A DNA stretch of 59,241 bases from a virus (Duplodnaviria > Heunggongvirae > Uroviricota > Caudoviricetes), in IMG/VR virus record IMGVR_UViG_3300006149_000003; one strand, given 5' to 3'. How positions within the stretch are numbered: position 1 is the stretch's first letter; every line of letters starts with the position of its first letter. Positions 5,241 through 26,922 of this stretch are shown one piece after another. The notes under the pieces were generated by a model. The model was not told the DNA's origin and made no database searches. It worked only from the letters and a program-made list of their open reading frames with translations. Made by a program: the position numbers and the translations under genes.

Positions 5241-5302
5241 TGAAGGGGAAGTAACGAACAAAATCAAGCCCCTCGAATCTATATGAAAAGGATGAGTTTT
5301 TC

Positions 5303-5539
5303 GTGATTTCGATTACCAAGCAAGAGAAAGACCTACTGGTCAAACTGTTCCCGCATTATAAATTTCCCCGTACCATGAAGCAAGATTCCAAACGGCATCA
5401 CTATTTCTGTACGGAGAGCGAGGAGCTGATGCGTCCGATTGCCGACAGTAATTCTGCGGCTGCAGAAAGGGTGAAGGAGTTTGACCGCCAACGTGCGCTA
5501 CGGGATGCGCGAAGAAAAAGCCAGAGTGGTGAGTGTTGA
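5303..5539 (+). CDS. Small basic hypothetical protein, 78 aa
   Basis: RBS AAGGA, GTG start; stop overlaps next ATG. Confidence 0.7.
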   Translation: MISITKQEKDLLVKLFPHYKFPRTMKQDSKRHHYFCTESEELMRPIADSNSAAAERVKEFDRQRALRDARRKSQSGEC

Positions 5540-5733
5540 TGGCCTTTCAGGAGCAAAGAGAACAATATACAAATGTCACAATCGACTGTTCTGACGGAAC
5601 CTTGACGGAATTTCACAGGGATAAAGTAAACACCTACAGCATAGAGGAAATTCTAAAACGGTGGAGTGGAGTACCCAATATTACACTAATAATTGAGCGA
5701 CAGATAGAATTGCCGCCGACAGAAGAGAGGTGA
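5539..5733 (+). CDS. YonK-like protein
   Basis: 64 aa; pattern TYSIEEILKRWSG..ITLIIE resembles SPbeta YonK; same position ahead of the phosphoesterase. Confidence 0.6.
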   Translation: MAFQEQREQYTNVTIDCSDGTLTEFHRDKVNTYSIEEILKRWSGVPNITLIIERQIELPPTEER

Positions 5734-6968
5734 AACAATTCGTGAACCCTAAGTACGAGCAAAAAGATGGTGAAGATCTTTACGAGTATGGGCTTCGTCT
5801 GATTGAAATTAAGATGGAGCAGAAACCGGACGACCTGGACTGGGAAGATATCGTAGAGGCGACTCAGCTGGACTGTCATCGGGATAGTCTGAGGAAAGCG
5901 GCGTCTGTTACGCCATACTCTGGCTATGCCGTCGCCCAACACTTTAAGCGAAAGTATGCAGCGGTAGACCGACCGGATAAAGAGCAATATCTGGGAGAGC
6001 TTGATATCAAAATTGCTGAAGCCAGAAAAGAATCTAAACGGCTCTTTGATCAGCGGCGTGAGTTTAACAAGCTGGTTGACCGCATTGGACGGACTGAAAA
6101 TCTGGAAGACCGTCTTGTGGAGGCGGCTGCGGCATTGAACGAGTCTACGCCTCTGAATATAGACAAATCTTCCGTTTACGCCTATGGTGATAACGAAGCG
6201 GTTATTGTGTTTGCGGATTGGCACTATGGTATGGTGACAGATAACATCTGGGAGCGTTATAATACCGAAGTGTGCCGCTGTCGTGTGGAACGGTTGGTGG
6301 AAACGGCAATCGAACGGATCAGACTGCATCGCTGTCGGAGGCTTCATATCCTTCTGCTGGGGGATATGGCCCACGGTGCGATTCACACCAGTGCCCGTGT
6401 TGCCTCTGAAGAGTTGGTGTGCGATCAGGTGATGCAGGTGTCGGAAATTATTGCCCAAGCAGTGGCTGCTCTGGCAGATGTAGTTGACGAAACGGTGGTA
6501 CACGCAACCTACGGAAATCATTTGCGCACCGTCCAGAATAAACAAGACAGCATTCACGCGGATAACATGGAGCGTCTGATTCCTTGGTGGCTGGAACAAC
6601 GACTGGGTGATAGGGGCGACATTCAATTTCCCCAAGCTGAGTATTACGAATTTCTATACTTTAATGTGTGTGGTTATCAGATTTGCGCCACTCACGGCGA
6701 CCTTGACAGTGTGAAGAACGCCGGCAGGACGTTGAACACTCTGTTTGTGAAGAAATATGGCTCTGGAATTGATTATGTTATCCTTGCTGATAAGCACCAC
6801 AAAGAGGAATTTGAGGAATTGGGCATTGAGAGCATGATCGTAAGGTGCCTTTGCGGAACTGACGAGTATGCGAACGGGAAGCGGTTATATTCCACTCCGG
6901 GTCAACTGATGATGGTGTTTACGCCTGGGATTGGCGCTGACGCATATTATCAGATCAAACTGAACTGA
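5730..6968 (+). CDS. Calcineurin-like metallophosphoesterase (YonJ-like)
   Basis: 412 aa; motifs ADWHYG, LGDMAHG, YGNH, THGD, ADKHH. Confidence 0.8.
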   Translation: MKQFVNPKYEQKDGEDLYEYGLRLIEIKMEQKPDDLDWEDIVEATQLDCHRDSLRKAASVTPYSGYAVAQHFKRKYAAVDRPDKEQYLGELDIKIAEARKESKRLFDQRREFNKLVDRIGRTENLEDRLVEAAAALNESTPLNIDKSSVYAYGDNEAVIVFADWHYGMVTDNIWERYNTEVCRCRVERLVETAIERIRLHRCRRLHILLLGDMAHGAIHTSARVASEELVCDQVMQVSEIIAQAVAALADVVDETVVHATYGNHLRTVQNKQDSIHADNMERLIPWWLEQRLGDRGDIQFPQAEYYEFLYFNVCGYQICATHGDLDSVKNAGRTLNTLFVKKYGSGIDYVILADKHHKEEFEELGIESMIVRCLCGTDEYANGKRLYSTPGQLMMVFTPGIGADAYYQIKLN

Positions 6969-6979
6969 GGAGTGATCAT

Positions 6980-7297
6980 GTGCTCAAAAACGATCTTGTA
7001 GTTGCCTTGTCCGAGATGGACTATTACAAAAATCAGGCTGGTGCTGTAATCAACGATGTGTTCCATGTCATTGCAGAGGCGTTGGCTCATGGCGAGAAAG
7101 TAACAATTCGGGGATTTGGGACATTTGAGGTGAAGACAAGGAAAGGATGTCTTGTGCGAGACATCCATACCAAAAAGCAAAGACAAATGGACGATTATCG
7201 GGTGGTTGTGTTCCGTCCTGGTGATAATTTGAAAGAGGCTGTAAAGGCTAACGACCCTGGGAAACTCCGCTTGTTGAGCAGAGCAGAAAAAAATTGA
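6980..7297 (+). CDS. hup: HU-family DNA-binding protein
   Basis: 105 aa; signature VTIRGFGTFEVKTRKG...VVVFRPG..LKEAV. Confidence 0.9.
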   Translation: MLKNDLVVALSEMDYYKNQAGAVINDVFHVIAEALAHGEKVTIRGFGTFEVKTRKGCLVRDIHTKKQRQMDDYRVVVFRPGDNLKEAVKANDPGKLRLLSRAEKN

Positions 7298-7301
7298 AAA
7301 A

Positions 7302-7369
7302 ATTTTGTTCGCCGCTATTGACATCTGGTTCAGAGCGTGCTATACTATAACCATAGCGGCGAACAAAAT
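7302..7369. repeat. Perfect 17 bp inverted repeats bracketing a promoter
   Basis: ATTTTGTTCGCCGCTAT (7302-7318) and ATAGCGGCGAACAAAAT (7353-7369). Confidence 0.95.
7318..7346 (+). promoter_or_regulatory. Near-consensus sigma-A promoter driving the RNA operon
   Basis: TTGACA (7318-7323), 17 nt spacer, TATACT (7341-7346). Confidence 0.85.
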
Positions 7370-7372
7370 CAA

Positions 7373-7387
7373 TGTTCCTTGAAAATT
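7373..7387 (+). promoter_or_regulatory. boxA-like antitermination element
   Basis: TGTTCCTTGAAAATT resembles Firmicute rRNA-leader boxA; lies just after the predicted +1 of a long untranslated operon. Confidence 0.45.
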
Positions 7388-8013
7388 TAATCTTTGCATC
7401 ATGCTTATTACTAACTCGGTGAACAAAGTGTGTCAGCACTCCGAGGCGTATGGTATTTTCGGTTTGACTTGGCGATTGTCTATGGACATCGTAGCATAGG
7501 GATACCTTTCAAGTGAGGCCGCTACTGTACAGTGATGTACGGTGGGGAGGCGGAAACCGCCAACAGAAACATATGTCGCCAAGAGTTATCGCTTCATAAC
7601 GCACAGAACTTTCGGGCGCAACAATAGACGCTCCTGTGGAGAATAAGCCTTGCAGTAGCTCGGTGTGGTAGCCGAGAGATACGGAGGTAAAACCAACAAT
7701 GCGCTCCTGTCTTGATGTCGGAGAAATCCGGCTATAACGAAAGTCACTGGTTAGAGTAGCCGTAGGACAGATTGCAAAATCTTTTGAAGAAATTACTATA
7801 AAAGTAAGTATTTAATTCAAAACTTTTCTGAACGAACGGTGAAATTTGTGAGTAAACAGGCTCACGTAGGAGGTGGCGCTATGGCGCTGGGGCAAGAAGT
7901 TAGGGGTCGCTCCCCGAAGCTCAGACTTGTCTCCCTGGTGGCGGAACAATGAAGAAGATTATGGAGGTAGGGCGAAGGCCCAGTGGTGAGTATGATGGAA
8001 AGATTAAATTTTC
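7381..8013 (+). ncRNA. Large structured ncRNA, ROOL-like
   Basis: 7381-7412 pairs with 7982-8013 over 32 positions (one G.G mismatch, four G.U pairs). No long ORF; many internal hairpins; ~630 nt; next to phage tRNAs. Family assignment is from recalled motifs only. Confidence 0.7.
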
Positions 8014-8039
8014 CTTAGAAACAAACAAAATCAATGTAT

Positions 8040-8115
8040 GGGGTTGTAGCTCAGTTGGGAGAGCGCCTGTTTTGCAAGCAGGAGGTCGGGAGTTCGATCC
8101 TCCCTAATTCCACCA
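8040..8115 (+). tRNA. tRNA-Ala(UGC)
   Basis: Cloverleaf; loop TTTGCAA; G3.U70; CCA encoded. Confidence 0.92.
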
Positions 8116-8229
8116 GCAAGATATGTTGGTTATGCTGACGCTTGTGTGGTTCAGTTCATTACTTAACTACTATTCCTGTCAGAAACCTATCGGTCATGAA
8201 CGAGGTTCTTCGGACGCATATCGCTAAAT

Positions 8230-8305
8230 CGGGATATAGCTCAGTTGGTAGAGCACACGACTGATAATCGTGCGGTCAGAAGTTCAATTCTTCTCGTCCC
8301 GACCA
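8230..8305 (+). tRNA. tRNA-Ile(GAU)
   Basis: Cloverleaf; loop CTGATAA; CCA. Confidence 0.92.
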
Positions 8306-8328
8306 TAGGTACTTTGACAATTCTATAT

Positions 8329-13503: not shown

Positions 13504-15308
13504 GCATGAATTACGAAAAAGTTATGGATGAACGGCAGCGTCATGTACATGAGCATTTTTCATCCTCAAACTATCTGGGAGATCCCCATAGAGTACAGAA
13601 ACTAATGGATTGGATTACCTTTTGGAGAAGAAACCCAAGCCGTTTCGTACAGTATTATTTTGGGATTACTCTTCACCTTTATCAACACATTATCTTGTTT
13701 CTAATGGATATCTTTCCAAGTATTTGTCTGGTTGCAGCGCGGAGTGCCGCAAAATCCTTTATCATTGCGATTTATGCTTGTAAGGAAGCAATTTTGCGAC
13801 CAGGTGCGAAAATCGTCGTAGCTTCAGCCACGAAGGGACAGGCAAAGCTGATTGTGTCTGAGAAAATCCAGAAGGAAATTCTACCTCGATCTCCGTTGTT
13901 GCAGGCGGAGATTGAGCGCATCCGTGATAATCAGAATGAAATTGAGGTTTTCTTCCATAATGGAAGCTCTATTATTGTGGTGCCGGCCAATGACAATGCT
14001 CGTGGACACCGTGCGACTGTAATGATTTATGAAGAGTTCCGTATGATTCTGAAAAACATAATTGATACCGTTCTCTCTCCTTTTCTATATGTGCGGCAGG
14101 TTCCATGTATTTTGAAGTATGAGGAATACAGTTCTTTGATCGAGGAGCCGAAAGAGGTCTATATCAGTTCTGCATGGTATAAAAACCATTGGATGTGGGA
14201 TCAGATGAAGATCATCGTGAAAGATATGTTGAAAAAAGATTCTGCTATTCTGATTGGCATGGATTATAGCATTTCGTTGAAACACGCAATCAAACCAAGG
14301 GCGTTCCTTATCAAAGAACGGAACAAACTGGATAGTGTAGCATGGGCAATCGAGTACGAAAACCAAATGATTGCCGAAAACGCCCACGCTTACTTTACTT
14401 ACGAGATGTTGAATAAGAACCGTTGCCTAAAACGTCCATTCTATCCACGGAAAAACGAGGATGTTTTGATGCGGGCAAGAAATCTCTATGCTATTCCTCG
14501 GCAGCAAGGAGAAATCCGTATTATATCTTGTGATATTGCCACTGAGGGGGGAGACAGCAACGATAACTCTATTTTCTCTTGTATTCGTGCTTTGCCAGAA
14601 AGTATGGAATACAAGACTTCTGATGTGAACGGAGAACACATTGAAGTTAAGCAAGGGTATCGCCGGCAAGTGGTGTATATGGAACCTCAAACGGAATTTG
14701 AAACAACCAAGCAGGCCATTCGGATCAAACAACTATTTACAGACTTTGATGCGGACTACTGTGTATTGGATACCAGAAATGCAGGTATTGCTATTTACGA
14801 TGCCTTAGCGAAGGTTCTATATGATGTAGAACGCAATGTAGAATATGAGCCTTGGTCGTGCATGAACGACGATAACCTAAGATCTCGTATCGTAATTGCC
14901 GGTCAGAAAGAAGTAGTTTACTCTATTAAAGCCCAGTTGGAAACGAACAGTAAAATCGCTGTATGTATGAAAAATACACTCAACAGTAAAATGATTGAGC
15001 TAATGGTGCCCAATCAAGAGGGTGTGGAGGAACTACAGCGAATTGTTCCGGACTATGAGACAGCAGATGTCGAAACTCAGCTTTTTTATGAGCGTCCTTT
15101 CTTGGAAACTGTAGCACTAATCAATGAAATGATTGGGCTGGAGTATACGGTGCAAAATCAAACTGGGCTTATTAAAATTGAAGAACGGTCTGGAGCACGG
15201 AAAGACCGGTATACTTCGGTATCTTATGGCAACTATTTCATTGAGCTTTTGGAGCAGGATCTATTTTCGGATAGTTCAGAATACGAATATGTAACATTTT
15301 ACAATTAA
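13500..15308 (+). CDS. terL: Terminase large subunit
   Basis: 602 aa; ATPase region (AARSAAKS, YEEFR, YISSA) and nuclease region (ISCDIA, VLDTRNAG, RKDRYTS). Confidence 0.85.
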   Translation: MSMNYEKVMDERQRHVHEHFSSSNYLGDPHRVQKLMDWITFWRRNPSRFVQYYFGITLHLYQHIILFLMDIFPSICLVAARSAAKSFIIAIYACKEAILRPGAKIVVASATKGQAKLIVSEKIQKEILPRSPLLQAEIERIRDNQNEIEVFFHNGSSIIVVPANDNARGHRATVMIYEEFRMILKNIIDTVLSPFLYVRQVPCILKYEEYSSLIEEPKEVYISSAWYKNHWMWDQMKIIVKDMLKKDSAILIGMDYSISLKHAIKPRAFLIKERNKLDSVAWAIEYENQMIAENAHAYFTYEMLNKNRCLKRPFYPRKNEDVLMRARNLYAIPRQQGEIRIISCDIATEGGDSNDNSIFSCIRALPESMEYKTSDVNGEHIEVKQGYRRQVVYMEPQTEFETTKQAIRIKQLFTDFDADYCVLDTRNAGIAIYDALAKVLYDVERNVEYEPWSCMNDDNLRSRIVIAGQKEVVYSIKAQLETNSKIAVCMKNTLNSKMIELMVPNQEGVEELQRIVPDYETADVETQLFYERPFLETVALINEMIGLEYTVQNQTGLIKIEERSGARKDRYTSVSYGNYFIELLEQDLFSDSSEYEYVTFYN

Positions 15309-15322
15309 GGAGGTGAAGATTT

Positions 15323-17005
15323 ATGGCAGGTGAATCAAGATTTCGGTCATGGCTGACCAGACTGACAGGCGGGGAAAATCATCCAAGAGATACTACTGAG
15401 CAGAATGCGATTTCCTCTACAGTGGAAGCAGTTTTACATGAGTTCAACACTCAACTCGGAGCGGCCTATTTGAATGCGGTCGGTTGTGGAAGCTCTAAGA
15501 CAGCACCATATTCTACGGAGCAGATTATCAGAATGGCGCAAGAACCTATGAGATACATTACTGAGCTGCGTCAGTGGGCACGTTGGGCGTATTACTCCAA
15601 TGGGACGGTTGGCACTGCGATTGACGCCCTGACAAGTCTTCACTCTCTGGATTACATTGTGACGGCAAGACCCAAAAAGTCCGGTGGTCAACGTAAAGGC
15701 TATCGCACTAATGCTGATCGGATGAATAGTGTTCTTCGTTCTATGCGCTACAAAGAGGTGATTCGTGACGCTGTTTTTCATAATGCCAACGAAGGAATGT
15801 ATGTAGGGTACATGGAAACCCGCACTATTCCTGTAGAGCGGAGGTTGGCGCTGACGGATGCGGATATCAATGGCATTACTGATATCAACTCTGCTGGCGT
15901 CAACACGGTAGTTATCTCTCTTCCTATTGAATATGTAAGAATTATTGGCCGTAGGAATAACTGCTACGAGGTAGCGTTTGATCTGCGGTATTTTGATGGT
16001 ATGTTGGATGACGAGCGCAAGCGGAAATTACGTGGATTTCCTCGGCAAATTCAAGACGGCTGGGAAAAGTATCACAATGGTGGGTTTGAAAACGGCGCTA
16101 CATGGCTGAGGTTGGATTGGCGCAAAACGATTGTAACCAAAATTAAAAGCAGTCAGAACGATCCGTATGGCGTTCCGTTTGCTGTTGCGGCTTTGGATGA
16201 TATTGATTATGCCAAGTATTTTATCAATACCAAGCGTCATGTGTTGGATAAGGTAAACAATCAGATTTACTACGAGACATTTCCAGAGGGGAAAGATAAG
16301 GGTACTTCCGCTCTATCTCAGAAGCAACAGGAAAATCAGCATAACACGGTAAGACAAGCTCTGACACAGCGCACAAATTCCAGCGGCATTGCATTTTTCT
16401 CTTTGGCGGCAGGCACAAAAATGGATAGCCTGCCAGTCAATATTGACTTGCTGGACGAGGATAACGAGAATGCGATCAAAGAAGATGTGAACGAGGCTAT
16501 CGGTGTGGGCGCGGCGGCTCTAAGCGGAAGCAGTTCCACAAGCAACTATGCTACGGCCATGCTGAATCTGGAGATTGTGGCAAACAATGTTTTTACATGG
16601 ATTGAGGCTATTGTTGAGGAGTTGAACAAGTGCTTAAACTATAATGTAATTCGTGATAGCAGTTATCGCGTAGAGTTTAGGGTCCTGCCTATTACATTTG
16701 CTAATCGGGAGAAGCAGGTAAAATATTTCTCTGATCTGTATGCGCGTGGCAAAGGGAGCTTGCTTGCATGGATTGCAGCAACGGGTATCAATGCTGACGA
16801 CTATCTCTCTCTCATGGACTTGGAGTTGGAGGAAGATTTTGAAAATCGCTACCCAGTCCATAAAACTTCGTTTACTGTGACGGGTAAAGACGCTCCAGAT
16901 GGCGATGTAGATAAAAGTACCAGCGGTGATGCGCCACAAAATGCAAGCACCGCATCTACAACGGCTAATAATGGAAATGCAAGTCCATCTCCTTCTGATA
17001 CGTAA
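15323..17005 (+). CDS. Portal protein (YonE-like)
   Basis: 560 aa; follows terL; DPYGVPF motif. Confidence 0.75.
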   Translation: MAGESRFRSWLTRLTGGENHPRDTTEQNAISSTVEAVLHEFNTQLGAAYLNAVGCGSSKTAPYSTEQIIRMAQEPMRYITELRQWARWAYYSNGTVGTAIDALTSLHSLDYIVTARPKKSGGQRKGYRTNADRMNSVLRSMRYKEVIRDAVFHNANEGMYVGYMETRTIPVERRLALTDADINGITDINSAGVNTVVISLPIEYVRIIGRRNNCYEVAFDLRYFDGMLDDERKRKLRGFPRQIQDGWEKYHNGGFENGATWLRLDWRKTIVTKIKSSQNDPYGVPFAVAALDDIDYAKYFINTKRHVLDKVNNQIYYETFPEGKDKGTSALSQKQQENQHNTVRQALTQRTNSSGIAFFSLAAGTKMDSLPVNIDLLDEDNENAIKEDVNEAIGVGAAALSGSSSTSNYATAMLNLEIVANNVFTWIEAIVEELNKCLNYNVIRDSSYRVEFRVLPITFANREKQVKYFSDLYARGKGSLLAWIAATGINADDYLSLMDLELEEDFENRYPVHKTSFTVTGKDAPDGDVDKSTSGDAPQNASTASTTANNGNASPSPSDT

Positions 17006-17021
17006 AGGGAGGTGAAGAAGT

Positions 17022-18218
17022 ATGGCTGAGAAGTTTTTTTATCCAATTTGTTATGAGATTTCCAGCGAAAGCAAGATTGCAGGCAGACGGCCTATCAAGG
17101 TCATCCTGCATGAAATCTTTCCAGACGATTCTACGTGGCAGGAGAATGGAATCTCGTGGATTGAGAAATATGTACAAGCTAACCTGCATTCTGTAGTAGG
17201 TATGTCAATTACCGTTGAGTTTCTGACAGATGATAGAGACATTCCTTATGGGCACGGAATGACTGAGATTCGTGTACAAGATAACTTGCCTTTGTTTGAG
17301 GATGCTACTATGGTGGGGCATTTTGACAGGGCGTATATTGATGACGTTGAAATTGATGGTGTAACGAAGCGAGTGTTGATTGCTGAGGGAACACTGGACG
17401 AGATGCGTTATCCAAAGTTTGTAGCTTGGCTGCGTGAGCATATGGCAGAATCCACTATTAAGGGATCTGTCGAAATTGTTGGTAAAGCCGAGCATGATGG
17501 ATACATTATTTACTCCGGCGGTTGGAAAGAGCAGGGTCGTATTCCGCAAATCTATGATTACAGTGGCTATGCAATCCTTAGCGTCAAACCGGCTGATGAG
17601 GCCGCTATCGTGATGGAGTTAAATAATAAAAAGCAACAAAAGGAGGAAAGTACCATGGATGAGAAGCTGAAAAATGAATTGATGGCGGTCATCTCCGGAG
17701 CTGTTTCCGAGTCCAATTCCAAGTGGGATGAATACTGGGCAAAGGTTGAGGCAAAGGATGCTGAGATTGCCCAGCTCCAGGCGGACATCAAACTCAAGGA
17801 GGCCGAAATCGCACAGCTGCGGGCCGACTTTGAGGCGGCAAATGCCGCACAAGCCGCTGCTGAGGCTGGACTGACTGAGGCAAATGCCGCCAAGGAGACG
17901 GCAGAAGCCAGTTTGAGTGAGGCTAACGCCAAGATCGCCCAGCTTGAAAGCGAAGCTGCCAAAGCCGAGCTAAATGCAGCATTGGCACCTTACACCGAGG
18001 AGCAGCAGGCGATCGCAAAAGAGGAGATCGACGCTTTCAATGAGAACCCCGGAAGTGTGGAAATCAATGCTATCGTGGGCAAGATTTGTACTGAGATGGT
18101 GCGCTTGTCACGCGAGAAGTCGGTTGCAGAAACCAACGCTGCCAGTGAAATTGATGTTTTCGCTATGACAGACAGCACTAAGCTGGAAGCTGACGACGGT
18201 GAAGTCGATGTATTCTAA
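17022..18218 (+). CDS. Prohead protease/scaffold (YonD-like), possible nested scaffold from ATG 17655
   Basis: 398 aa; globular N-terminal half, Ala/Glu coiled-coil C-terminal half; internal AGGAGG plus in-frame ATG. Confidence 0.65.
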   Translation: MAEKFFYPICYEISSESKIAGRRPIKVILHEIFPDDSTWQENGISWIEKYVQANLHSVVGMSITVEFLTDDRDIPYGHGMTEIRVQDNLPLFEDATMVGHFDRAYIDDVEIDGVTKRVLIAEGTLDEMRYPKFVAWLREHMAESTIKGSVEIVGKAEHDGYIIYSGGWKEQGRIPQIYDYSGYAILSVKPADEAAIVMELNNKKQQKEESTMDEKLKNELMAVISGAVSESNSKWDEYWAKVEAKDAEIAQLQADIKLKEAEIAQLRADFEAANAAQAAAEAGLTEANAAKETAEASLSEANAKIAQLESEAAKAELNAALAPYTEEQQAIAKEEIDAFNENPGSVEINAIVGKICTEMVRLSREKSVAETNAASEIDVFAMTDSTKLEADDGEVDVF

Positions 18219-18237
18219 GAAAGGAAAGTGAGAGGAA

Positions 18238-18696
18238 ATGAAAGCAAAGACTATCGGTTATTTCAAGAATGTTCAGAACGTCGGCTACTGCAAAGCTGCT
18301 GTCGATCTGAAGGTGGGTATGGGCGTGATTCTGGATCGCGCTGCTAAGACGGCTAATTTGCCTGCCAGTGCGGATGAGGCTAAGGCGTGCCACCGCATCG
18401 TTACCAATATTAACGATAAGCCTGAGATGCACAATTACAGTGAGACTGTGGAGGTCAAGGAGGGCGAATATGTTCGTGCTGACGATTTGACTTCCGTGGC
18501 AAACATGGAGATGGAGTTTGCCGACTATGAGATCAACGGCGGTGTTGACAGTGTTGACGCTGGCGATACCCTGGTGTTTGGCACTGATGGCCTGATTGTA
18601 AAGGGCACAAGTGACGGCTACAAGGTGTACTTTGAGGTCATCGAGAAGACCGCGTATATGGGTAAGGGTATTCTGGCCGTTATCCGCGTGCAATAA
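18238..18696 (+). CDS. Head decoration / capsid accessory protein
   Basis: 152 aa; lies between scaffold and major capsid genes. Confidence 0.55.
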   Translation: MKAKTIGYFKNVQNVGYCKAAVDLKVGMGVILDRAAKTANLPASADEAKACHRIVTNINDKPEMHNYSETVEVKEGEYVRADDLTSVANMEMEFADYEINGGVDSVDAGDTLVFGTDGLIVKGTSDGYKVYFEVIEKTAYMGKGILAVIRVQ

Positions 18697-18713
18697 TGAA
18701 GGAGGGAGAAAAC

Positions 18714-19820
18714 ATGAACCCGATTTATGAAATCAATATGAACAATGCTCAGGTTGTTGTTGACACTGGGCGTGTTAAGCAGAACTCCCCTGTTGTCGAG
18801 GTGTTTTCTGCTCTCGCAGCGGGCATGAAGCCCAATGTGGATGCCAAGGTTTTGGACAAATCTGTGGCAACGCTGAAGGAGCTGTCTTCTAAGGCTTTGG
18901 CTGGCGATCTTGCCGCACAGAGCGAAATCAATACCATTGTCCGTTTCGCTATTGAGCCGAAACTGCTGGAGGCTGTGCGCCTATTCGACTTTATGGGTAC
19001 TTATCGTCGGATCGGATACCACGAAGCTCCTATGATGAAGACCTATAAGTATGAGAGCGTGGATTCTCGTTTCCAGGCTTCCAGTGCTGATGTGCCGTTT
19101 GCGGCTTGGAATTGGCGTGAGTACCCCATCGGCACCCAGACTATTTCTGGTGGCTTTGCTGTTGATTACCGTGAGCTTCAGAGCGGCAATTTCGACGGCA
19201 ATATTGCCGAGGGTATGAACCAGGTGCAGACTGATATGCAGAATAAGGCTGTCTATTATGTGATGACTGTTCTGTACAATGCGCTGAAGAACGCTAAGGG
19301 CGTGAAGCACTTTGCTGAGTCCACCGGTATTACCAAGACCGGCGTTGACAATATGCTGAAGTCCATGCGTCGGTACGGCAAGGTCAACATCGCTGGTGAC
19401 TACTCTGTGGTTAGCCAGTTTAACGATTTTGCTGGGTTCAAGTCTCTGGCAGCTGACGAGACGCGGTACGCAAACACTATTGTCGCTGAGGAGATTCGTA
19501 AGACTGGACTTGTCAATTTGTACAACGGCGCAATCGTGACCGAGCTGCCCAACGCAATTAACTGGACGAAGCTGAATGCTGCGGGCACCGACTACGATCT
19601 GTATATGCCCCAAGGTCTGCTGTTCTTCCTGCCCCGTGGCGCTGTGTCCCCGCTGCAGGTCTTCCTGCGTGGTGGTCTGACCACTATGACTGGTGACGAC
19701 ATCGTGACTCGGCAGCATCTGACCCGCTTCGACATGGAACTGGGCGCTGGTGTTGCGGAGGGTATGGAGGATCAGATCGGTCTGATTTCCGACACCAACT
19801 TTGAGGCACCCACCGCCTAA
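18714..19820 (+). CDS. Major capsid protein (YonB-like)
   Basis: 368 aa; strong RBS; biased codon use; followed by a terminator. Confidence 0.75.
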   Translation: MNPIYEINMNNAQVVVDTGRVKQNSPVVEVFSALAAGMKPNVDAKVLDKSVATLKELSSKALAGDLAAQSEINTIVRFAIEPKLLEAVRLFDFMGTYRRIGYHEAPMMKTYKYESVDSRFQASSADVPFAAWNWREYPIGTQTISGGFAVDYRELQSGNFDGNIAEGMNQVQTDMQNKAVYYVMTVLYNALKNAKGVKHFAESTGITKTGVDNMLKSMRRYGKVNIAGDYSVVSQFNDFAGFKSLAADETRYANTIVAEEIRKTGLVNLYNGAIVTELPNAINWTKLNAAGTDYDLYMPQGLLFFLPRGAVSPLQVFLRGGLTTMTGDDIVTRQHLTRFDMELGAGVAEGMEDQIGLISDTNFEAPTA

Positions 19821-19848
19821 GCGACGAACTAAATCAAAGAAAACTAAA

Positions 19849-19876
19849 AGGGAGGGGTAAAACCCTCCCTAATTTT
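19849..19876 (+). terminator. Intrinsic terminator after the capsid gene
   Basis: AGGGAGGG-GTAAAA-CCCTCCCT-AATTTT. Confidence 0.6.
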
Positions 19877-19896
19877 CAATAACAAGGAGAATCGTT

Positions 19897-20367
19897 ATGG
19901 CAACAAATAACAATGTCCTGGTAAATAATCTGTGCGCTTGGCCTCTCTCTTTCTGGCGTAAAGCTGGGCAGGGTGATGTTGAGATCCCCGCGAACGCGAA
20001 GAACTGGCCTCTGCTGTCATTCGAGGAGGTTCAGGCACAGATTCAAACTGGGAATAGGATGTTCACTGGCACAGACGGTATGGGCAACCATGCTCGTATT
20101 CAGATTGTCAATGATGAGCAACGTAAGCAGCTTTTCGGCCTGGAAAGTGTGGAGACAGACGCTCCTGCTCTGCTGAACCTGGATGCTGTCAAGGCATTGC
20201 TGAATATCCGTACTAAGGCCAAGTTCAACGAGCAGCTTAAAGCAATGGTAACAACCGATGCTGAGAAGAAGATGCTGGTAGAGTTGGCACAGCAGGCCGG
20301 GTCAGATGATGTTGAGGCGTGGAAGGTGGATGCCCTACGTGCTCTGGCTGAAACTGCCGCCGTTTAG
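19897..20367 (+). CDS. Head-associated protein (YonA-like position)
   Basis: 156 aa; RBS AAGGAG. Confidence 0.65.
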   Translation: MATNNNVLVNNLCAWPLSFWRKAGQGDVEIPANAKNWPLLSFEEVQAQIQTGNRMFTGTDGMGNHARIQIVNDEQRKQLFGLESVETDAPALLNLDAVKALLNIRTKAKFNEQLKAMVTTDAEKKMLVELAQQAGSDDVEAWKVDALRALAETAAV

Positions 20368-20393
20368 GTCTGAGAGAGGAGAGGGTATGGAAT

Positions 20394-20798
20394 ATGCCTA
20401 ACGCTAAGAGAACAACCTTTGCGGATATTGAGAAAACCTTCCATTCCATGCCTTTGACGAAATTTGAAATCCCAGAAGGATTAGAGGCAGAATGGCTTGC
20501 CACAGCGGTTGCAGATTATGAGTTGAATTTAAGCTGCGACTTGCGGTATAACGAGAAAACACAAAAGTTTGCCGGCAAACTGGATAGAACCGTTTGCCGG
20601 ACGCTGGCGCAGATGATGTATGTGTCTTATCTGCAAAGGGAATTGAGCCGTGTCATGGCCTTGAATGGTATTTACGGTAAAGATGTACAGCTGACAGGGC
20701 AGGATGCTACAAAGCGTGTGACCAAGCAGGAGCTTGACGATCAGATTGCTTTGGTTGAAAGACTGCTCCATCGGCAGAAAGATCATACGTATGGATAA
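20394..20798 (+). CDS. Head-tail adaptor candidate
   Basis: 134 aa; position in neck module. Confidence 0.55.
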   Translation: MPNAKRTTFADIEKTFHSMPLTKFEIPEGLEAEWLATAVADYELNLSCDLRYNEKTQKFAGKLDRTVCRTLAQMMYVSYLQRELSRVMALNGIYGKDVQLTGQDATKRVTKQELDDQIALVERLLHRQKDHTYG

Positions 20799-20809
20799 GG
20801 GGTGGTAAT

Positions 20810-21862
20810 ATGTCAGAGGAATCCAAGAGCTGGTATCGGATGACACGCCCCCTTTTCAACAGCGGTTTTGAGGATGATGAGTTTTGGGCATATGGTCAGG
20901 ATGGCTTTCAGGAGGTGCTTGACTCTTTTATCGGGGCCGATGTGTTGATCTATGATAAGGCTGTATATGCCCAGCCACAACAGGTAAGAGCAATCGTTCA
21001 AAATAAGACCAGCGATGTTTACAACAGCACGACAGTACGACAAATTCTCTGTAATATTGGAATTTTGAAGTGCGGGCAGTATGTGAAATACGATGGAGCA
21101 TTCTGGCTGGTCAGTGCGTTGCCAGACAACAACCGTATTTACGAAAAAGCGGTATTGTGGAAATGCAAACATTCCATTCGATTTGTTTCCCCGCTGACTG
21201 GTGAGATTGTAGACTATCCAGTATTTAGCACCAATAGTACACAGTACGGTACAGGTGAGTTGGAAAAGACCCACATGAATGTTGGAGAAGATCAGCATTT
21301 AATTTATCTCCCATTTAACCAAGAGACGATTTTGCTGGATGACAATTTCCGCTTTATCATGGATAAAAGACGTGACAAGCCAAGTGTCTATCGTATTACA
21401 AGGGTAGATCCTGTTTCTTATGCGGTAGGCAGTGAGCGTGAGGAGGATGGGTTAATTCAATGGTCAGTGCTGCAAGACCAGCTGAATACCGCAACAGACA
21501 GTGTTGAACTGATGATTGCAGATTATCATGCTGCTACCTCTGGTGGTGTAGAGGAAGTACCAGGGTCAACGGCTTCTCTCATATTGACTGATTTGGACGG
21601 AGACTTCAGATTGGCAAGTGGCGAAACAAAGCAAGTACAGGTTCGTTGTTTGACGGCTGATGGAGATCCTATTGATCCACCTCAATACCACTTGGAATGC
21701 GACTTTGGCGGTGCAGTCAGTATTATCGCAGAGGAAGATGGTGTAATTACATTACAGGCAAAGAGCGATCCATCTTATGTTGGAAAGCAAATTGAAATCA
21801 AAGCGATCAATGACGAACTCGCGTGTGAGGCTGTCATTACTATTCAAATCGTGAATTGGTAG
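20810..21862 (+). CDS. Head closure / neck protein candidate
   Basis: 350 aa; position; C-terminal Ig-like segment. Confidence 0.55.
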   Translation: MSEESKSWYRMTRPLFNSGFEDDEFWAYGQDGFQEVLDSFIGADVLIYDKAVYAQPQQVRAIVQNKTSDVYNSTTVRQILCNIGILKCGQYVKYDGAFWLVSALPDNNRIYEKAVLWKCKHSIRFVSPLTGEIVDYPVFSTNSTQYGTGELEKTHMNVGEDQHLIYLPFNQETILLDDNFRFIMDKRRDKPSVYRITRVDPVSYAVGSEREEDGLIQWSVLQDQLNTATDSVELMIADYHAATSGGVEEVPGSTASLILTDLDGDFRLASGETKQVQVRCLTADGDPIDPPQYHLECDFGGAVSIIAEEDGVITLQAKSDPSYVGKQIEIKAINDELACEAVITIQIVNW

Positions 21863-21875
21863 GGAGGTGAAGAGA

Positions 21876-22373
21876 GTGCCGCATTTTGACGCGATGATTC
21901 AGCAAAAAATCCTTTTGAAGCGTAAGCTGCTACAAAATCAGGCAGTGGTAAACCTGCTTTGTAATGTGGGCAATAATGTAGTGGAGTTTGAGAATATCAG
22001 AACGGGAAGCAAAAGTCCTGCGGCGTCTCTTATCAAAACTCACTTTTATGTCCCAGATACACAAACAGTAGATAAAAACTTCATTACGATGCGTAGCCGT
22101 GTGGTATATACCGACTCGAATGTGGTGAAGGAGACGGGGATCACCGTCTATATCATCTGTAACGAACACCAAATTGACTTGCTGCAGGGTTCCAGAGCGG
22201 ATCTGCTGGCAGATGAGGTTGATTGTATTCTGAATAACGGAGAGGAACCTTTGTTTGGGCTGGGAGGAATTGTTCTGAGCACAGCAGATGAGGTTCAGTT
22301 TAACGAAGGATATTCTGGGTGGCAAATCCCATATATCACTCACGAGAGGAATAGGAGCGCAGAACTGTTATGA
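21876..22373 (+). CDS. Tail terminator / neck protein candidate
   Basis: RBS GGAGGTG before GTG; position. Confidence 0.55.
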   Translation: MPHFDAMIQQKILLKRKLLQNQAVVNLLCNVGNNVVEFENIRTGSKSPAASLIKTHFYVPDTQTVDKNFITMRSRVVYTDSNVVKETGITVYIICNEHQIDLLQGSRADLLADEVDCILNNGEEPLFGLGGIVLSTADEVQFNEGYSGWQIPYITHERNRSAELL

Positions 22374-23089
22374 TTGATAGTCTAACTGCGCTGACAGGCG
22401 AAGCGTACAAAATTACACCAAAAATTGGAGTGAGGAACCCAACATTGAGGGAGATCTACCATTATGGGGAGCAGCAGTATTTTGGACTTGCACAGACAAT
22501 TTGTGCAACACCCGCTGACCGTAAGGTAGAGATATGGGACGCTATGAATACTTATTGGGATAGGATAGACGAGTATGAGTTGTTTGTGTCTACGTTTAGA
22601 GCTATCCAGTTGCGTGACACGAAGATACTGTTTGGGGATTTAGATGTGGCTTCGTTTCAACCTATGCCCTCAAAGAACCTCAAAGATTTTGTTCTTGTGA
22701 ATCGGGATGGGGCGGTAATCGACCGTGCGGTTTACAAGTTGCTAACTGATTATCTACGGCATATCCATCAGTTCAAAAAGAATGAAGTGAAGCCGTATGA
22801 CGATTATACCAGAGATATTATGATCGAGGCGGATCGGGATGATCGCGAGGACGCAGCAAACAAGCCGTTCAAGTCCATGCTGAAACCACTTGTTTCTTCG
22901 GCAATAAACCTGCCTGGATCTCAATTTCGATGGGATACTGTTTGGGATGCACCTATCGGAGTGTTTATGGACAGTATTATGCGTATGCAAAAGCGTGACC
23001 ATTACTATTTCACAATGCTTGGAATTTATAGTGGTTGCGTTGATATGAAAAAAATCAACAAAAAAGAGCTTGAATGGATGTCTGACTGA
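22370..23089 (+). CDS. Phage structural or assembly protein, 239 aa
   Basis: ATGA overlap; position ahead of the tail tube. Confidence 0.6.
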   Translation: MIDSLTALTGEAYKITPKIGVRNPTLREIYHYGEQQYFGLAQTICATPADRKVEIWDAMNTYWDRIDEYELFVSTFRAIQLRDTKILFGDLDVASFQPMPSKNLKDFVLVNRDGAVIDRAVYKLLTDYLRHIHQFKKNEVKPYDDYTRDIMIEADRDDREDAANKPFKSMLKPLVSSAINLPGSQFRWDTVWDAPIGVFMDSIMRMQKRDHYYFTMLGIYSGCVDMKKINKKELEWMSD

Positions 23090-23121
23090 CACCTGCGGCT
23101 AACAAGAAAGGATGGTTAATT

Positions 23122-23916
23122 ATGCCTAATTTTGACATTAAGAGTGCTGTTATCAACAGATTTCTCCGTCTAACCGAGGTAGATCTGGAGTCTGGTATGG
23201 TGAATTGGGTGCTCAGAAACATCGAAAGCCCCCAGGCTGAGTTCACTGGCGAATCTGTGGATAAGACCGACGAGCGTGGTATTCTAATCTCACGTTTTGA
23301 TACCGCCAAGGGTTTCACTCTGTCCGGCGAAAGTTCTAAGCTGGAGCTTGGCCTGATGGCTTCTCAGCTGGGTACTGAGGTTCAGGTGGCGACCGCCGAC
23401 AAGAAGATCAAGGGTGAGGATTTCGAGATCATCACGATTGTGGAGGACAGTGGTGAAAAGAAAGCTACCATGGCTTATACCCCGACGACTACCCCCAGTG
23501 TGGTGTACGCGATCAACAAGGACAAGTCTCTGGGCGATCCCATTGAAGTCGGTACTGCTGATGAAAACGCCAAGATTACCGGAAATGTTATCACGCTGCC
23601 TGATACCTATACCGGAAGTCGTATTGGCGTGCTGTATCAGTACGAGACGGACGAGGCCGTTCGTGTGACCGACAGCTCTGAAACCTTCAACAAGAATGCC
23701 AAGTATATTGCCAAGATCCTGGCTGAAGATGTGTGTGGTGTGACCGCTGCTATCACTATTGTGATTTCCAAGGGTAAGCTGGACAACAACTTCAGTCTGA
23801 ATCTGACCACCGAGGGCACCCACCCCTTCAGCATTTCCGCCATGAAGGATTACTGCTCCGAGGAGGAAGAGCTGTGCTACATCCTCATCGGTAAGGCAGT
23901 TGGCGTGGGCGTGTAA
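23122..23916 (+). CDS. Major tail tube protein (YomU-like)
   Basis: 264 aa; beta-rich; biased codon use; position. Confidence 0.65.
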   Translation: MPNFDIKSAVINRFLRLTEVDLESGMVNWVLRNIESPQAEFTGESVDKTDERGILISRFDTAKGFTLSGESSKLELGLMASQLGTEVQVATADKKIKGEDFEIITIVEDSGEKKATMAYTPTTTPSVVYAINKDKSLGDPIEVGTADENAKITGNVITLPDTYTGSRIGVLYQYETDEAVRVTDSSETFNKNAKYIAKILAEDVCGVTAAITIVISKGKLDNNFSLNLTTEGTHPFSISAMKDYCSEEEELCYILIGKAVGVGV

Positions 23917-23919
23917 GCG

Positions 23920-24282
23920 ATGAAGCGTCATTGCCGGGTGTGCGGTGCAGAGTACGAGTATTGCTATTCCTGTGAAAAGGTTCATAGCTGGCGTGCTCTG
24001 ACCGACACCGCCGACCATTACTATATTCTCAATGTCTTGATGGAATATCAGGGCGATCACGATGCTGTGAAAGCCTATCATGCTCTTAGCAAACGTGGTG
24101 TGAATATTCGAGAGACAGACGGCCTTTTGCCGAGTGTGAAAATGCTCATGGTGGAAATCGCCTCAAAAGTGAAAGGTATGAATGGGACGAGAAAGAAAGC
24201 TGTTCCCGCTGGTCAGGCGGTCGTTGAGAAGAAGGATGAAAAGCAGTTGCATTCAACAGATGATGCTGAGGTAAGTGAATAA
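23920..24282 (+). CDS. Zn-binding hypothetical protein (possible tail chaperone)
   Basis: CRVC...CYSC; follows tail tube. Confidence 0.6.
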   Translation: MKRHCRVCGAEYEYCYSCEKVHSWRALTDTADHYYILNVLMEYQGDHDAVKAYHALSKRGVNIRETDGLLPSVKMLMVEIASKVKGMNGTRKKAVPAGQAVVEKKDEKQLHSTDDAEVSE

Positions 24283-24292
24283 GAATAAAGAA

Positions 24293-24330
24293 GAGGCGTT
24301 GCAGAAAATAGGCTGCAGCGCCTCCTTTTT
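24293..24330 (+). terminator. Intrinsic terminator
   Basis: GAGGCGTTGCAG-N8-CTGCAGCGCCTC-CTTTTT. Confidence 0.75.
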
Positions 24331-24350
24331 CGATTTGGAGGTGAGTAGAG

Positions 24351-25528: not shown

Positions 25529-25531
25529 GGA

Positions 25532-26266: not shown

Positions 26267-26278
26267 TTCTGGAGGATT

Positions 26279-26905: not shown

Positions 26906-26922
26906 AAGAAGGAGGTGGCGGC

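What the first reader, a model, noticed from the sequence alone, without database searches (positions are those of the whole stretch)
7381..8013. ~630 nt RNA closed by a 32 bp terminal helix (ROOL-like)
Seen: the ends pair over 32 positions with four G.U pairs, which points to selection on RNA rather than DNA structure. Internal hairpins include GGCGGAAACCGCC, GGGGTCGCTCCCC and GGGCGAAGGCCC. Known: ROOL RNAs are about 600 nt, found in Firmicutes and their phages near tRNAs, form multimeric cages, and have no known function. The family call is from memory of motifs.
Basis: partly seen in the sequence, partly recalled or inferred. Interest (0 to 1): 0.7.

Follow-up and report, generated by a model that had tools for sequence, protein, structure and literature searches.

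The report
Phage ROOL RNA with rRNA-style stalk
This is a genuine copy of ROOL, a known ~600-base phage RNA that builds hollow RNA-only cages of unknown purpose. Here it opens a mouse-gut phage's tRNA operon, and its long closing helix begins with a signal resembling the one bacteria use when making ribosomal RNA.

Summary
Bases 7381-7412 pair with 7982-8013 over 32 positions: 27 Watson-Crick pairs, 4 G.U pairs and 1 G.G mismatch.

Rfam's ROOL model (RF03087) matches 7391-8000 end to end at 348.5 bits, against a gathering score of 99.1 (E 8e-80). The + strand folds far better than the - strand. In 18 distinct relatives the helix is 93.6% paired, and 13 of its 32 pairs show compensatory changes. 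This is a new member of a known family whose function is still unknown.

Three points add to that:
- **Helix length.** The natural closing helix is about twice the 16-17 bp of the Rfam model and of the solved env-120 construct. Long versions are common in the family.
- **Operon position.** ROOL is the first gene behind a near-consensus promoter, ahead of 19 tRNAs and a tmRNA, in an SPbeta-like mouse-gut phage.
- **boxA-like motif.** AUGUUCCUUGAAA straddles the 5' base of the helix. It resembles the NusB-binding boxA of B. subtilis rRNA operons. It recurs at that spot in other ROOL lineages, and a similar motif holds the same position in the 16S processing stalk of related bacteria. This is an untested lead that ROOL is made like an rRNA.

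The scan has noted rRNA-style leaders on other large phage RNAs elsewhere (e1-5380566).

The parts
7318..7346 (+). Sigma-70-type promoter: TTGACA, 17-nt spacer, TATACT, with TG before the -10 hexamer. The predicted start is near 7353.
   Evidence: 11 of 12 consensus positions, the best site in 6900-12700. The promoter is kept in relatives L163/L150 and the region aligns in the L172 group. Promoter activity is inferred.
7351..7375 (+). Leader repeat, copy 1. It contains the exact 14-mer AACAAAATCAATGT at 7362-7375.
   Evidence: (family D15). The second copy lies at 8013-8037. Its meaning is unexplained.
7372..7384 (+). boxA-like motif AUGUUCCUUGAAA. Its last four bases are the first four bases of the closing helix.
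   Evidence: It matches 11 of 13 positions of the B. subtilis rrn boxA consensus AUGAUCUUUGAAA, which binds NusB (PMC13753749). The motif is in the same register in other ROOL lineages. A similar motif holds the same position in the 16S stalk of a related bacterium. Its function is inferred.
7381..8013 (+). ROOL RNA gene, 633 nt including the full closing helix. The Rfam model itself covers 7391-8000.
   Evidence: 348.5 bits, full model. (strand asymmetry). (153 consensus pairs, 70 with compensatory change); the only ORF of 60 aa or more touching it is 7248-7439 on the - strand, which overlaps only its 5' end.
7381..7412 (+). P1, 5' strand (32 nt). The outer 15 bp lie outside the paired part of the Rfam model.
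7982..8013 (+). P1, 3' strand (32 nt).
7549..7561 (+). Hairpin GGCGGAAACCGCC. By its order in the Rfam structure line this is P3c, whose loop makes an A-minor contact with P5 in the solved env-120 structure.
   Evidence: alignment and (pairs 233-237 with 241-245 covary). The structural role is from PMC12286853. The mapping by helix order is my inference.
7765..7834 (+). Variable A+U-rich linker. In solved ROOL cages this is the disordered loop inside the cage.
   Evidence: the long loop of the model; the relatives cannot be aligned here. Its location inside the cage is from PMC12286853.
7903..7915 (+). Hairpin GGGGUCGCUCCCC = P18/L18. In env-120 this loop forms the symmetric kissing contact (bridge B6) between the two half-shells.
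   Evidence: It is invariant or covarying in relatives. P18/L18 lies at env-120 positions 554-577 of 659 (supplementary table 3 of PMC12286853). That is the same distance from the 3' end as here. The mapping is my inference.
7970..7981 (+). Hairpin GGGCGAAGGCCC, the last hairpin before the 3' strand of P1 (P19 by order).
   Evidence: (pairs 689-692 with 697-700 covary).
8013..8037 (+). Leader repeat, copy 2. It has 20 of 25 identities to 7351-7375 and ends 2 nt before tRNA-Ala.
8040..8115 (+). tRNA-Ala(UGC), the first of 19 same-strand tRNAs (8040-12441). The array also holds a tmRNA at 8329-8753.
   Evidence: ARAGORN; Rfam.
12477..12492 (+). Intrinsic-terminator-like hairpin followed by a T run. 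It closes the RNA gene block after the last tRNA.
   Evidence: Nothing terminator-like lies on the + strand between ROOL and tRNA-Ala.

Best explanation
The stretch is a functional gene for a ROOL RNA (Rfam RF03087) of an SPbeta-like phage from the mouse gut. My estimate for each step follows.

(1) Identity, about 0.98. It is a full-length, selectively maintained ROOL.

(2) Expression, about 0.75, inferred. It is transcribed from the near-consensus promoter at 7318-7346 as the first product of an RNA gene block. The block holds ROOL, tRNA-Ala, tRNA-Ile, a tmRNA and 17 further tRNAs, and ends at the terminator at 12477. ROOL must then be cut out of a longer precursor. RNase P cutting at the 5' end of tRNA-Ala would leave a 26-nt tail. 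The 32-bp helix P1 would stop exonucleases and clamp both ends.

(3) rRNA-style biogenesis, about 0.35-0.4, inferred. P1 works like an rRNA processing stalk. Its 5' base carries a boxA-like motif (AUGUUCCUUGAAA). This motif would load NusB-S10 on the polymerase, protect the untranslated transcript from termination, and hold the 5' strand until the 3' strand emerges 600 nt later. The finished helix is long enough to be an RNase III substrate.

(4) Assembly, about 0.7, by homology. The flat monomer assembles with copies of itself into a closed hexameric or octameric RNA-only cage, as shown for four other ROOLs.

(5) Purpose, about 0.15-0.2, a guess. The cage sequesters or shields some macromolecule in support of the phage's own translation RNAs during infection. 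This is the encapsulation idea of the structural papers. Nothing here tests it.
For: Identity:
- 348.5 bits, model positions 1-574 of 574.
- 16 more distant loci retrieved with a ROOL motif all score 288-390 bits, so the comparison set is real ROOL.

Selection on the RNA fold:
- P1 is 93.6% paired, 13 pairs change on both sides, 0 of 500 shuffles reach this, and one G.U is invariant.
- 153 consensus pairs, 70 of them with compensatory change.
- the + strand has z -6.6 and the - strand z -3.0.

Operon:
- promoter, same-strand tRNAs and tmRNA, terminator, and no terminator between ROOL and tRNA-Ala.
- the whole block is syntenic in at least 9 related phage contigs.
- ROOL can sit first (here), in the middle (L172) or last (L134 group) in the array, 8-26 nt from tRNAs.
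- in four distant loci the tRNAs abut or overlap the ROOL model ends. That makes tRNA-processing enzymes the obvious end-makers there.

Presence in RNA libraries:
- the stretch is held in metatranscriptome contigs from 3 mouse-gut studies.
- In two runs the contig carrying it (5252-9806) has depth 1018 and 533, against 15-25 for the neighbouring structural genes. This is weak, because depth is a single figure per contig.

boxA and stalk:
- the published B. subtilis boxA consensus binds NusB.
- 13 of 29 distinct long-P1 ROOL junctions lie within 2 mismatches of the published boxA consensus in the same register. Only 0.43% of random windows do. The L134 group matches exactly.
- in a complete genome of the nearest genome's family, GCACCUUGUAAA lies in the rrn leader and GCACCUUGAAAA in the 16S-23S spacer. 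The leader copy forms the outer 5' strand of a roughly 25-bp stalk enclosing 16S.

Cage and abundance:
- PMC12286853 and PMC12990946 for the cages.
- PMC5643018 for abundance above 16S rRNA and for stability.
Against: - No transcript ends, levels or strand could be read. All the RNA runs are kept only as contigs.
- The boxA support rests on few independent lineages. With published consensus sequences only, 3 of 9 sequence clusters reach 2 mismatches or fewer, and 4 more reach 3.
- A single boxA-like 12-mer is not rare. About 37 sites at 2 mismatches or fewer occur in this 59-kb window when the rrn-derived references are included. The weight therefore lies in the fixed position, not in the match itself.
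- Similarity of P1 to the rrn stalk beyond the motif core is modest: 17-18 of 33 positions.
- Part of the motif (GAAA) is base-paired in the mature RNA.
- In relatives where ROOL is last in the array, a boxA there could not protect the upstream tRNAs.
- ROOLs with short P1 that are abutted by tRNAs lack the motif, so it is not a universal ROOL requirement.
- The oligomer state cannot be read from the sequence.
- The function is unknown in every studied ROOL. A deletion in L. salivarius gave no clear phenotype (PMC5643018).
Confidence: 0.75

Rival explanations
1. The terminal helix is only an end clamp, and the boxA resemblance is incidental. The outer half of P1 merely protects ROOL from exonucleases. 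The conserved UUCCUUGAAAA would then be kept for a structural or nuclease-recognition reason unrelated to NusB-S10.
For: A clamp alone would explain the very high stability reported for ROOL (PMC5643018). Only 3 of 9 ROOL clusters match the published boxA consensus within 2 mismatches. boxA-like 12-mers occur by chance at about 3 per 10 kb per strand. Short-P1 ROOLs do without the motif. Four bases of the motif are paired in the mature RNA.
Against: If only pairing mattered, the outer helix should drift freely in sequence, as the rest of P1 does between clusters. Instead the same words sit in the same register in clusters whose P1 is otherwise unrelated. The L134 group matches the NusB-binding consensus at 13 of 13 positions. 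A related bacterium places a very similar motif at the outer 5' strand of its 16S stalk.
Confidence: 0.45
2. The 32-bp inverted repeat acts at the DNA level. It would be the terminal repeats of a mobile or recombining cassette, with the flanking 14-25-nt direct repeats (7351-7375 and 8013-8037) as a target-site duplication.
For: The outer 15 bp are a perfect DNA inverted repeat. The element is bracketed by a direct repeat whose two copies are identical within a phage but differ between phages: AACAAAATCAATGT here and AACAAAATCTCTTA in L163/L150. ROOL occupies different slots in related tRNA arrays.
Against: Four G.U pairs would be A-C mismatches on the other strand, and one G.U is invariant in 19 sequences. 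The helix evolves through G.U intermediates and compensatory changes, as RNA helices do. The whole interior is a covarying RNA fold with strong strand asymmetry. P1 is part of the family model and of the solved structure. No transposase or recombinase gene lies inside or beside it. The L172 group and most other relatives have no flanking repeat.
Confidence: 0.05
3. ROOL acts in cis as a leader that controls transcription or processing of the downstream tRNA-tmRNA block. On this view it is not a free-standing particle.
For: Here and in L163/L150 it lies between the promoter and the first tRNA. Other large leader RNAs heading phage tRNA arrays have been noted in this scan (e1-5375170, unchecked).
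Against: In most relatives ROOL is the last element of the array and is followed by a protein gene, or it lies between tRNAs. L. salivarius ROOL accumulates as a discrete, stable 520-nt species (PMC5643018). Purified ROOLs form closed cages on their own (PMC12286853).
Confidence: 0.05
4. The copy is an inactive relic.
Against: The full model is matched at a score typical of the family: 348.5 bits against 288-390 in 16 others. All conserved blocks are intact. The helices are maintained by compensatory change against relatives at 72-85% identity. A near-consensus promoter is present. The stretch is present in metatranscriptome assemblies from 3 studies.
Confidence: 0.03

Closest known systems
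ROOL RNA (Rfam RF03087; Weinberg et al. 2017, PMC5737381; Cousin et al. 2017, PMC5643018; cage structures in Kretsch et al. 2025, PMC12286853, and those reviewed in PMC12990946)
   Same: Full-length match to the covariance model. The conserved blocks are all present: ACAAUAGACG, GGUGAAA, GGUCGCUCC, CUCAGAC and GGGCGAAGGCCC. It has a closing P1, a variable internal linker and a phage context next to tRNA genes. It is a member.
   Different: The natural closing helix has 32 positions, against 16-17 bp in the Rfam consensus and in the env-120 construct used for cryo-EM (pairs 1-659 to 17-642). A boxA-like motif sits at its 5' base. Here ROOL is the promoter-proximal gene of the array. The long helix is not unique to this copy: 11 of 15 distant ROOLs have 21-35 bp.
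GOLLD RNA (giant ornate phage RNA near tRNA arrays; 14-mer cage, PMC12286853)
   Same: Same lifestyle: a large RNA in phage or prophage tRNA islands that forms an RNA-only cage with a disordered internal linker and has no known function.
   Different: Unrelated sequence and fold. No GOLLD match was found anywhere in the window at the gathering threshold, nor in 7000-12800 at E up to 1.
Bacterial rRNA operon leader and processing stalk (boxA with NusB-S10; long helix enclosing 16S or 23S, cut by RNase III)
   Same: A strong promoter, a boxA-like word early in an untranslated transcript, and a long helix joining the two ends of a large structured RNA with the boxA-like word on its outer 5' strand. 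This is as in the rrn operon of G013. tRNA-Ala(UGC) and tRNA-Ile(GAU) follow directly, and these are the two tRNAs typical of rRNA spacers (that last point is from my own knowledge).
   Different: It is not an rRNA. Neither NusB-S10 binding nor RNase III cleavage is shown. This is a resemblance in how the RNA may be made, not a family membership.

Membership tests
ROOL RNA (RF03087) | Covariance-model score above the curated gathering score over the whole model | tested here: met
   348.5 bits against 99.1, E 8e-80, model positions 1-574 of 574, + strand only.
ROOL RNA (RF03087) | Conserved multi-junction secondary structure supported by covariation | tested here: met
   153 consensus pairs in 19 sequences, 70 with compensatory change. 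P1 is 93.6% paired, with 13 pairs changed on both sides. Nested helices only.
ROOL RNA (RF03087) | Pseudoknots and tertiary contacts of the solved structures | not tested
   The loops concerned are present and conserved (P3c GAAA-type loop, P18/L18). I counted no pseudoknot pairs and cannot model the 3D fold.
ROOL RNA (RF03087) | Phage or prophage context, typically beside tRNA genes | tested here: met
   19 tRNAs start 26 nt downstream. The flanks carry exonuclease, HU, terminase and portal genes. The terminase is nearest to an uncultured faecal phage and to SPbeta-like phages.
ROOL RNA (RF03087) | Discrete, abundant, stable transcript of about 500-650 nt | tested here: inconclusive
   the stretch is held in RNA-library contigs from 3 studies, and the contig carrying it is 20-60 times deeper than neighbouring gene contigs in 2 runs. 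Contigs cannot show ends, strand or local level.
ROOL RNA (RF03087) | Self-assembly into a closed homo-oligomeric cage | not testable with these tools
   Known for env-120, env-209, E. faecalis and L. salivarius ROOLs (PMC12286853, PMC12990946, PMC12191101).
rrn-type boxA antitermination element | Sequence close to a NusB-binding boxA consensus | tested here: met
   7372-7384 matches 11 of 13 positions of the B. subtilis consensus. The L134-group ROOLs match 13 of 13. 13 of 29 ROOL junctions are within 2 mismatches, against 0.43% of background windows.
rrn-type boxA antitermination element | Placed early in an untranslated transcript, at or before the 5' strand of a long processing stalk | tested here: met
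   It lies about 20 nt after the predicted start and runs into P1. The rrn operon of G013 has the same layout.
rrn-type boxA antitermination element | Binds NusB-S10 and confers read-through | not testable with these tools
   Needs binding and reporter assays.
GOLLD RNA | Match to the family model | tested here: not met
   no GOLLD hit in the window at the gathering threshold, nor in 7000-12800 at E up to 1.
DNA transposon or MITE (terminal inverted repeats plus target-site duplication) | Inverted repeats that are complementary as DNA, with no RNA-type substitution pattern | tested here: not met
   there are 4 G.U positions and an invariant G.U, with substitutions passing through G.U; the strands fold asymmetrically.

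The most novel reading that the evidence does not exclude
ROOL is produced by hijacking the host's ribosomal-RNA production line. A boxA at the foot of its closing helix recruits NusB-S10 to the polymerase. The modified polymerase reads through the untranslated RNA operon and chaperones the 600-nt-apart strands of P1 together. The finished stalk is then trimmed by the rRNA maturation nucleases. This would explain why ROOL can reach rRNA-like abundance. It would apply to the long-helix ROOL lineages generally, and perhaps to other large phage RNAs.
Probability: 0.35. Interest if true: 0.6.

Novelty: new member of a known kind. Interest (0 to 1): 0.4.

Why it matters
ROOL is one of very few natural RNAs known to build a closed cage without protein, and nobody knows what the cage is for. 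This copy does not answer that question. It does supply a clean natural example in a defined setting: the promoter-proximal gene of a 5-kb RNA-only block with 19 tRNAs and a tmRNA, in a phage that recurs in mouse-gut samples.

Two practical points follow. First, the natural RNA has a closing helix about twice as long as the constructs solved so far, so structural and in vivo work should use the full ends. Second, the boxA-like motif at the foot of that helix gives a concrete, cheap hypothesis for how ROOL is made and why it accumulates like rRNA. The hypothesis is testable by NusB binding, boxA mutation and RNase III end mapping.

Tried and rejected
- **Phage collection searches.** blastn of 7300-8120 against the phage collection matched only the tRNA-Ala part. 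megablast of 12500-32000 found nothing. No close cultured relative exists there.
- **Window's own assembly.** It is not held. The nearest genome G001 and virus record G002 gave no ROOL hit and matched only tRNA segments of 6900-8400. This says nothing about absence, because tRNA regions assemble poorly.
- **First motif scan.** The pattern ACAATAGACG...AATAA was too unspecific. Only 3 of 114 loci looked like ROOL, so it was replaced by a 20-base pattern.
- **RNA runs.** All are kept as contigs, so transcript ends, strand and local depth cannot be read. One contig in run X19 starts at 7340, next to the promoter, but no second study repeats this, so I give it no weight. Parts of the window without cover mean nothing.
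- **ROOL docking to the RNA at 12067-12360 through the shared P18/L18 hairpin.** I lowered this idea. That RNA belongs to a family with more than 110 viral loci. Four phage records carrying it, one of them a complete 43-kb genome, have no ROOL, while the positive control was found. The shared hairpin is therefore not a ROOL-specific docking device.
- **DUF6273 gene.** A DUF6273 protein gene follows ROOL by about 40 nt in 35 related loci. These are syntenic relatives, and this window has only a distant homologue 38 kb away, so it gives no evidence of partnership.
- **Similarity of P1 to the rrn stalk beyond the motif core.** It is modest, 17-18 of 33 positions, so I make no claim of homology.
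- **Other dead ends.** A 16S search in G001 found nothing, so a family member (G013) had to be used. One literature query timed out. The P1-finding heuristic mislabels some loci; I used only helices of 21 pairs or more for counts.

Full report
**Observation.** Pairing base 7381+i with 8013-i gives 32 consecutive positions. These are 15 Watson-Crick pairs, a G.G mismatch at 7396/7998, then 16 pairs of which four are G.U. Any other register collapses, and the three positions outside each end do not pair. The 633-nt RNA folds to -219.8 kcal/mol (z -6.6 against dinucleotide shuffles), with this helix present in both the minimum-energy and the centroid structures. The opposite strand reaches only -160.6 kcal/mol (z -3.0). 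The only ORF of 60 aa or more that touches the stretch lies on the minus strand (7248-7439) and overlaps just its 5' end.

**Identity.** Rfam's ROOL model RF03087 matches 7391-8000 on the + strand at 348.5 bits (gathering score 99.1, E 8e-80), covering the model from its first to its last position. The same scan shows 19 tRNAs, a tmRNA (8329-8753) and an RT-2 RNA elsewhere in the window.

**Relatives and covariation.** A 20-base ROOL pattern retrieved 82 viral and 53 genome loci.
- About 45 loci align to 7381-8013 from end to end at 72-85% identity, which reduces to 26 distinct sequences.
- In an alignment of the window with 18 of them (A1), the 32-position helix is paired in 93.6% of cells. 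Sliding the partners by 1-3 columns gives only 37-48%.
- Thirteen pairs change on both sides, and 0 of 500 shuffles reach the observed values.
- The G.U at helix position 23 is invariant, and the non-pair at position 16 is kept in 14 of 19 sequences.
- RNAalifold on the same alignment predicts 153 pairs, 70 with compensatory change.

**How unusual is the long helix?** The Rfam consensus pairs only 16-17 positions in P1. The env-120 RNA solved by cryo-EM ends at that same helix, with pairs 1-659 to 17-642 (supplementary table 3 of PMC12286853). I took sixteen more distant loci, all confirmed as full-length ROOL at 288-390 bits, and asked how far the flanks continue the helix.
- Eleven of the fifteen analysed have 21-35 bp, reaching 1-12 nt beyond the model ends.
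- Four have 12-15 bp (L225, L140, L162, L223). In these, tRNA genes abut or overlap one or both ends of the ROOL model.

A long closing helix is therefore a common natural state of the family that the model and the solved construct truncate. It is not a peculiarity of this copy.

**Setting.**
- A near-consensus promoter lies at 7318-7346: TTGACA, 17 nt, TATACT, with TG before the -10 hexamer (11 of 12 positions).
- ROOL follows about 28 nt after the predicted start, and tRNA-Ala begins 26 nt after ROOL.
- Eighteen more tRNAs and the tmRNA follow on the same strand. A terminator-like hairpin at 12477-12492 closes the block. No terminator-like site separates ROOL from tRNA-Ala.
- The flanks carry phage genes: an exonuclease, an HU-type DNA-binding protein, large terminase and portal.
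- The terminase is closest to an uncultured 176-kb faecal phage (46% identity) and to SPbeta-like Bacillus phages (38%).
- The whole RNA block is syntenic in at least nine related contigs. Across relatives ROOL can be first (here, L163, L150), between tRNAs (L172 group) or last (L134 group and others), 8-26 nt from a tRNA.
- The DNA occurs in mouse-gut metagenomes from many studies and in metatranscriptome assemblies from three.
- In two RNA runs the contig carrying ROOL (5252-9806) has depth 1018 and 533, against 15-25 for contigs of the adjacent structural genes. Depth is one figure per contig, so this is only a hint that something in that 4.5-kb stretch is highly expressed.

**A boxA-like motif at the foot of the helix.** The bases AUGUUCCUUGAAA (7372-7384) run from the leader into the first four pairs of P1.
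- The boxA-like consensus of B. subtilis rRNA operons, shown by NMR to bind NusB, is AUGAUCUUUGAAA (PMC13753749). The window matches 11 of 13 positions.
- ROOLs of the L134 group match 13 of 13 at the same spot, although there the motif follows a tRNA rather than a promoter.
- I located P1 heuristically in all ROOL loci and scored the junctions against the two published consensus sequences only. Of 29 distinct junctions with a long P1, 13 lie within two mismatches in the same register, against 0.43% of random windows from the same loci.
- By sequence cluster, 3 of 9 reach two mismatches and 4 more reach three.
- None of the 37 short or uncertain cases reaches two mismatches, even with the wider five-sequence reference set.
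- In a complete genome of the family of the nearest held genome (G013), all six rRNA operons carry GCACCUUGUAAA in the leader and GCACCUUGAAAA in the 16S-23S spacer. A genome of a neighbouring family (G019) has GCACCUUGAAAA in its leader.
- In G013 the leader copy is the outer 5' strand of a roughly 25-bp stalk that pairs with the spacer just after 16S. This is the same geometry as in ROOL.
- No paper in the searchable library contains both 'boxA' and 'ROOL'.

There are cautions. Few lineages are independent. Single boxA-like 12-mers are common by chance. Likeness to the rrn stalk beyond the motif core is modest. Binding is untested.

**Unexplained detail.** The 25 nt from the predicted start to 5 nt before ROOL (7351-7375) recur right after ROOL (8013-8037; 20 of 25 identical, with the exact 14-mer AACAAAATCAATGT). 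The second copy ends 2 nt before tRNA-Ala. In L163 and L150 both copies read AACAAAATCTCTTA, so the copies are identical within a phage but differ between phages. This looks like a target-site duplication or a shared processing signal, and I could not decide which. The RNA-type substitution pattern of P1 argues against a DNA transposon.

**Shared module with another RNA.**
- The hairpin at 7903-7915 corresponds by position to P18/L18. [quoted passage not shown]
- The same 14 bases, together with CGGUGAAAUU, recur at 12153-12178 in an unassigned RNA between tRNA-Phe and tRNA-Lys.
- That RNA belongs to a large family with more than 110 viral loci.
- Four phage records carrying it, one of them complete, have no ROOL, while the positive control was detected.

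The module is therefore shared between two RNA families rather than being a ROOL docking site. A common partner or a common self-association loop remains possible.

**Mechanism.**
- *Shown here:* family membership, selection on the fold and on the long helix, the gene order, and the conserved motif and its position.
- *From the literature:* ROOL RNAs assemble without protein into closed hexamers or octamers about 28 nm across, with the variable linker inside (PMC12286853, PMC12990946). One ROOL is more abundant than 16S rRNA, very stable and dispensable (PMC5643018).
- *Inferred:* transcription from the promoter at 7318 as part of a long untranslated precursor; release by tRNA-processing enzymes and by trimming to P1, or RNase III cutting within it; boxA-dependent antitermination and chaperoning of P1 formation; and cage assembly for this copy.
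- *The cage's purpose* remains a guess. I favour sequestration or shielding of a macromolecule in support of the phage's own translation RNAs, at roughly 0.15-0.2.

**Verdict.** The value added is the natural full-length helix, the promoter-proximal position in an RNA-only operon, and a testable rRNA-style biogenesis lead. Other notes of this scan describe rRNA-style leaders on other large phage RNAs, for example a GOLLD (e1-5380566). I did not check them and do not count them as evidence.

Noticed in passing
window 7306-7321 and 7354-7369: A perfect 16-bp inverted repeat (TTTTGTTCGCCGCTAT / ATAGCGGCGAACAAAA) brackets the ROOL promoter. In L163/L150 both arms carry a matching change (CGCCGC to CGCTGC and GCGGCG to GCAGCG), so the pairing is kept. 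It could be an operator, a DNA switch, or an RNA hairpin in read-through transcripts from the HU gene upstream.
   Followed up: partly
window 8329-8753: A phage-encoded tmRNA: Rfam RF00023 at 72 bits against a cut-off of 47. ARAGORN does not call it. It directly follows tRNA-Ala and tRNA-Ile and is syntenic in the related phages.
   Followed up: partly
window 12067-12360: An unassigned structured RNA that shares TAGGGGTCGCTCCC and CGGTGAAATT with ROOL. It is a member of a large family (more than 110 viral loci), often directly after a tRNA-like 3' end. The family is also present in roughly 40-kb phages without ROOL. Rfam gives no match.
   Followed up: partly
window 45270-49747: A likely diversity-generating retroelement. 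It comprises an ORF at 45270-47294 whose C-terminal part resembles DUF6273 proteins, a small ORF at 47729-48193, an RT-2 RNA (48363-48580, 154.7 bits) and an ORF at 48353-49747.
   Followed up: no
L153:582-1385, L156:2950-3762 and 33 other ROOL loci: A DUF6273 protein gene of about 270 aa starts about 40 nt after ROOL in many related phages and is followed by a terminator and then tRNA-Ala. In this window that slot is empty.
   Followed up: partly
window 10071-10268 (-) and 10739-10968 (+): Two short ORFs with ribosome-binding-site-like sequences sit inside the tRNA block. The minus-strand ORF has its own terminator-like hairpin at 10046-10063. The block may therefore not be a single uninterrupted transcript.
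   Followed up: no
L162:3821-3896, L213:7060-7158, L223:7290-7358: Other catalogued RNAs lie in the loci that carry ROOL in distant phages: RAGATH-21 (89 bits) about 240 nt from ROOL, a drum RNA (52 bits) and a type II hammerhead (49 bits).
   Followed up: no
window 7396/7998: A conserved G.G non-pair sits exactly where the Rfam-model P1 ends and the outer 15 bp begin. It is unpaired in 14 of 19 relatives and G-C in the L164 group. It could be a nuclease-guiding internal loop or a tertiary contact.
   Followed up: partly
window 7462-7510 (alignment A1 columns 83-180): A side hairpin within the P3a region varies from 0 to about 60 extra nt among close relatives. The window has about 24 extra nt and L163/L150 about 60. 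The adjacent AGGGAUACCUU block is invariant.
   Followed up: no
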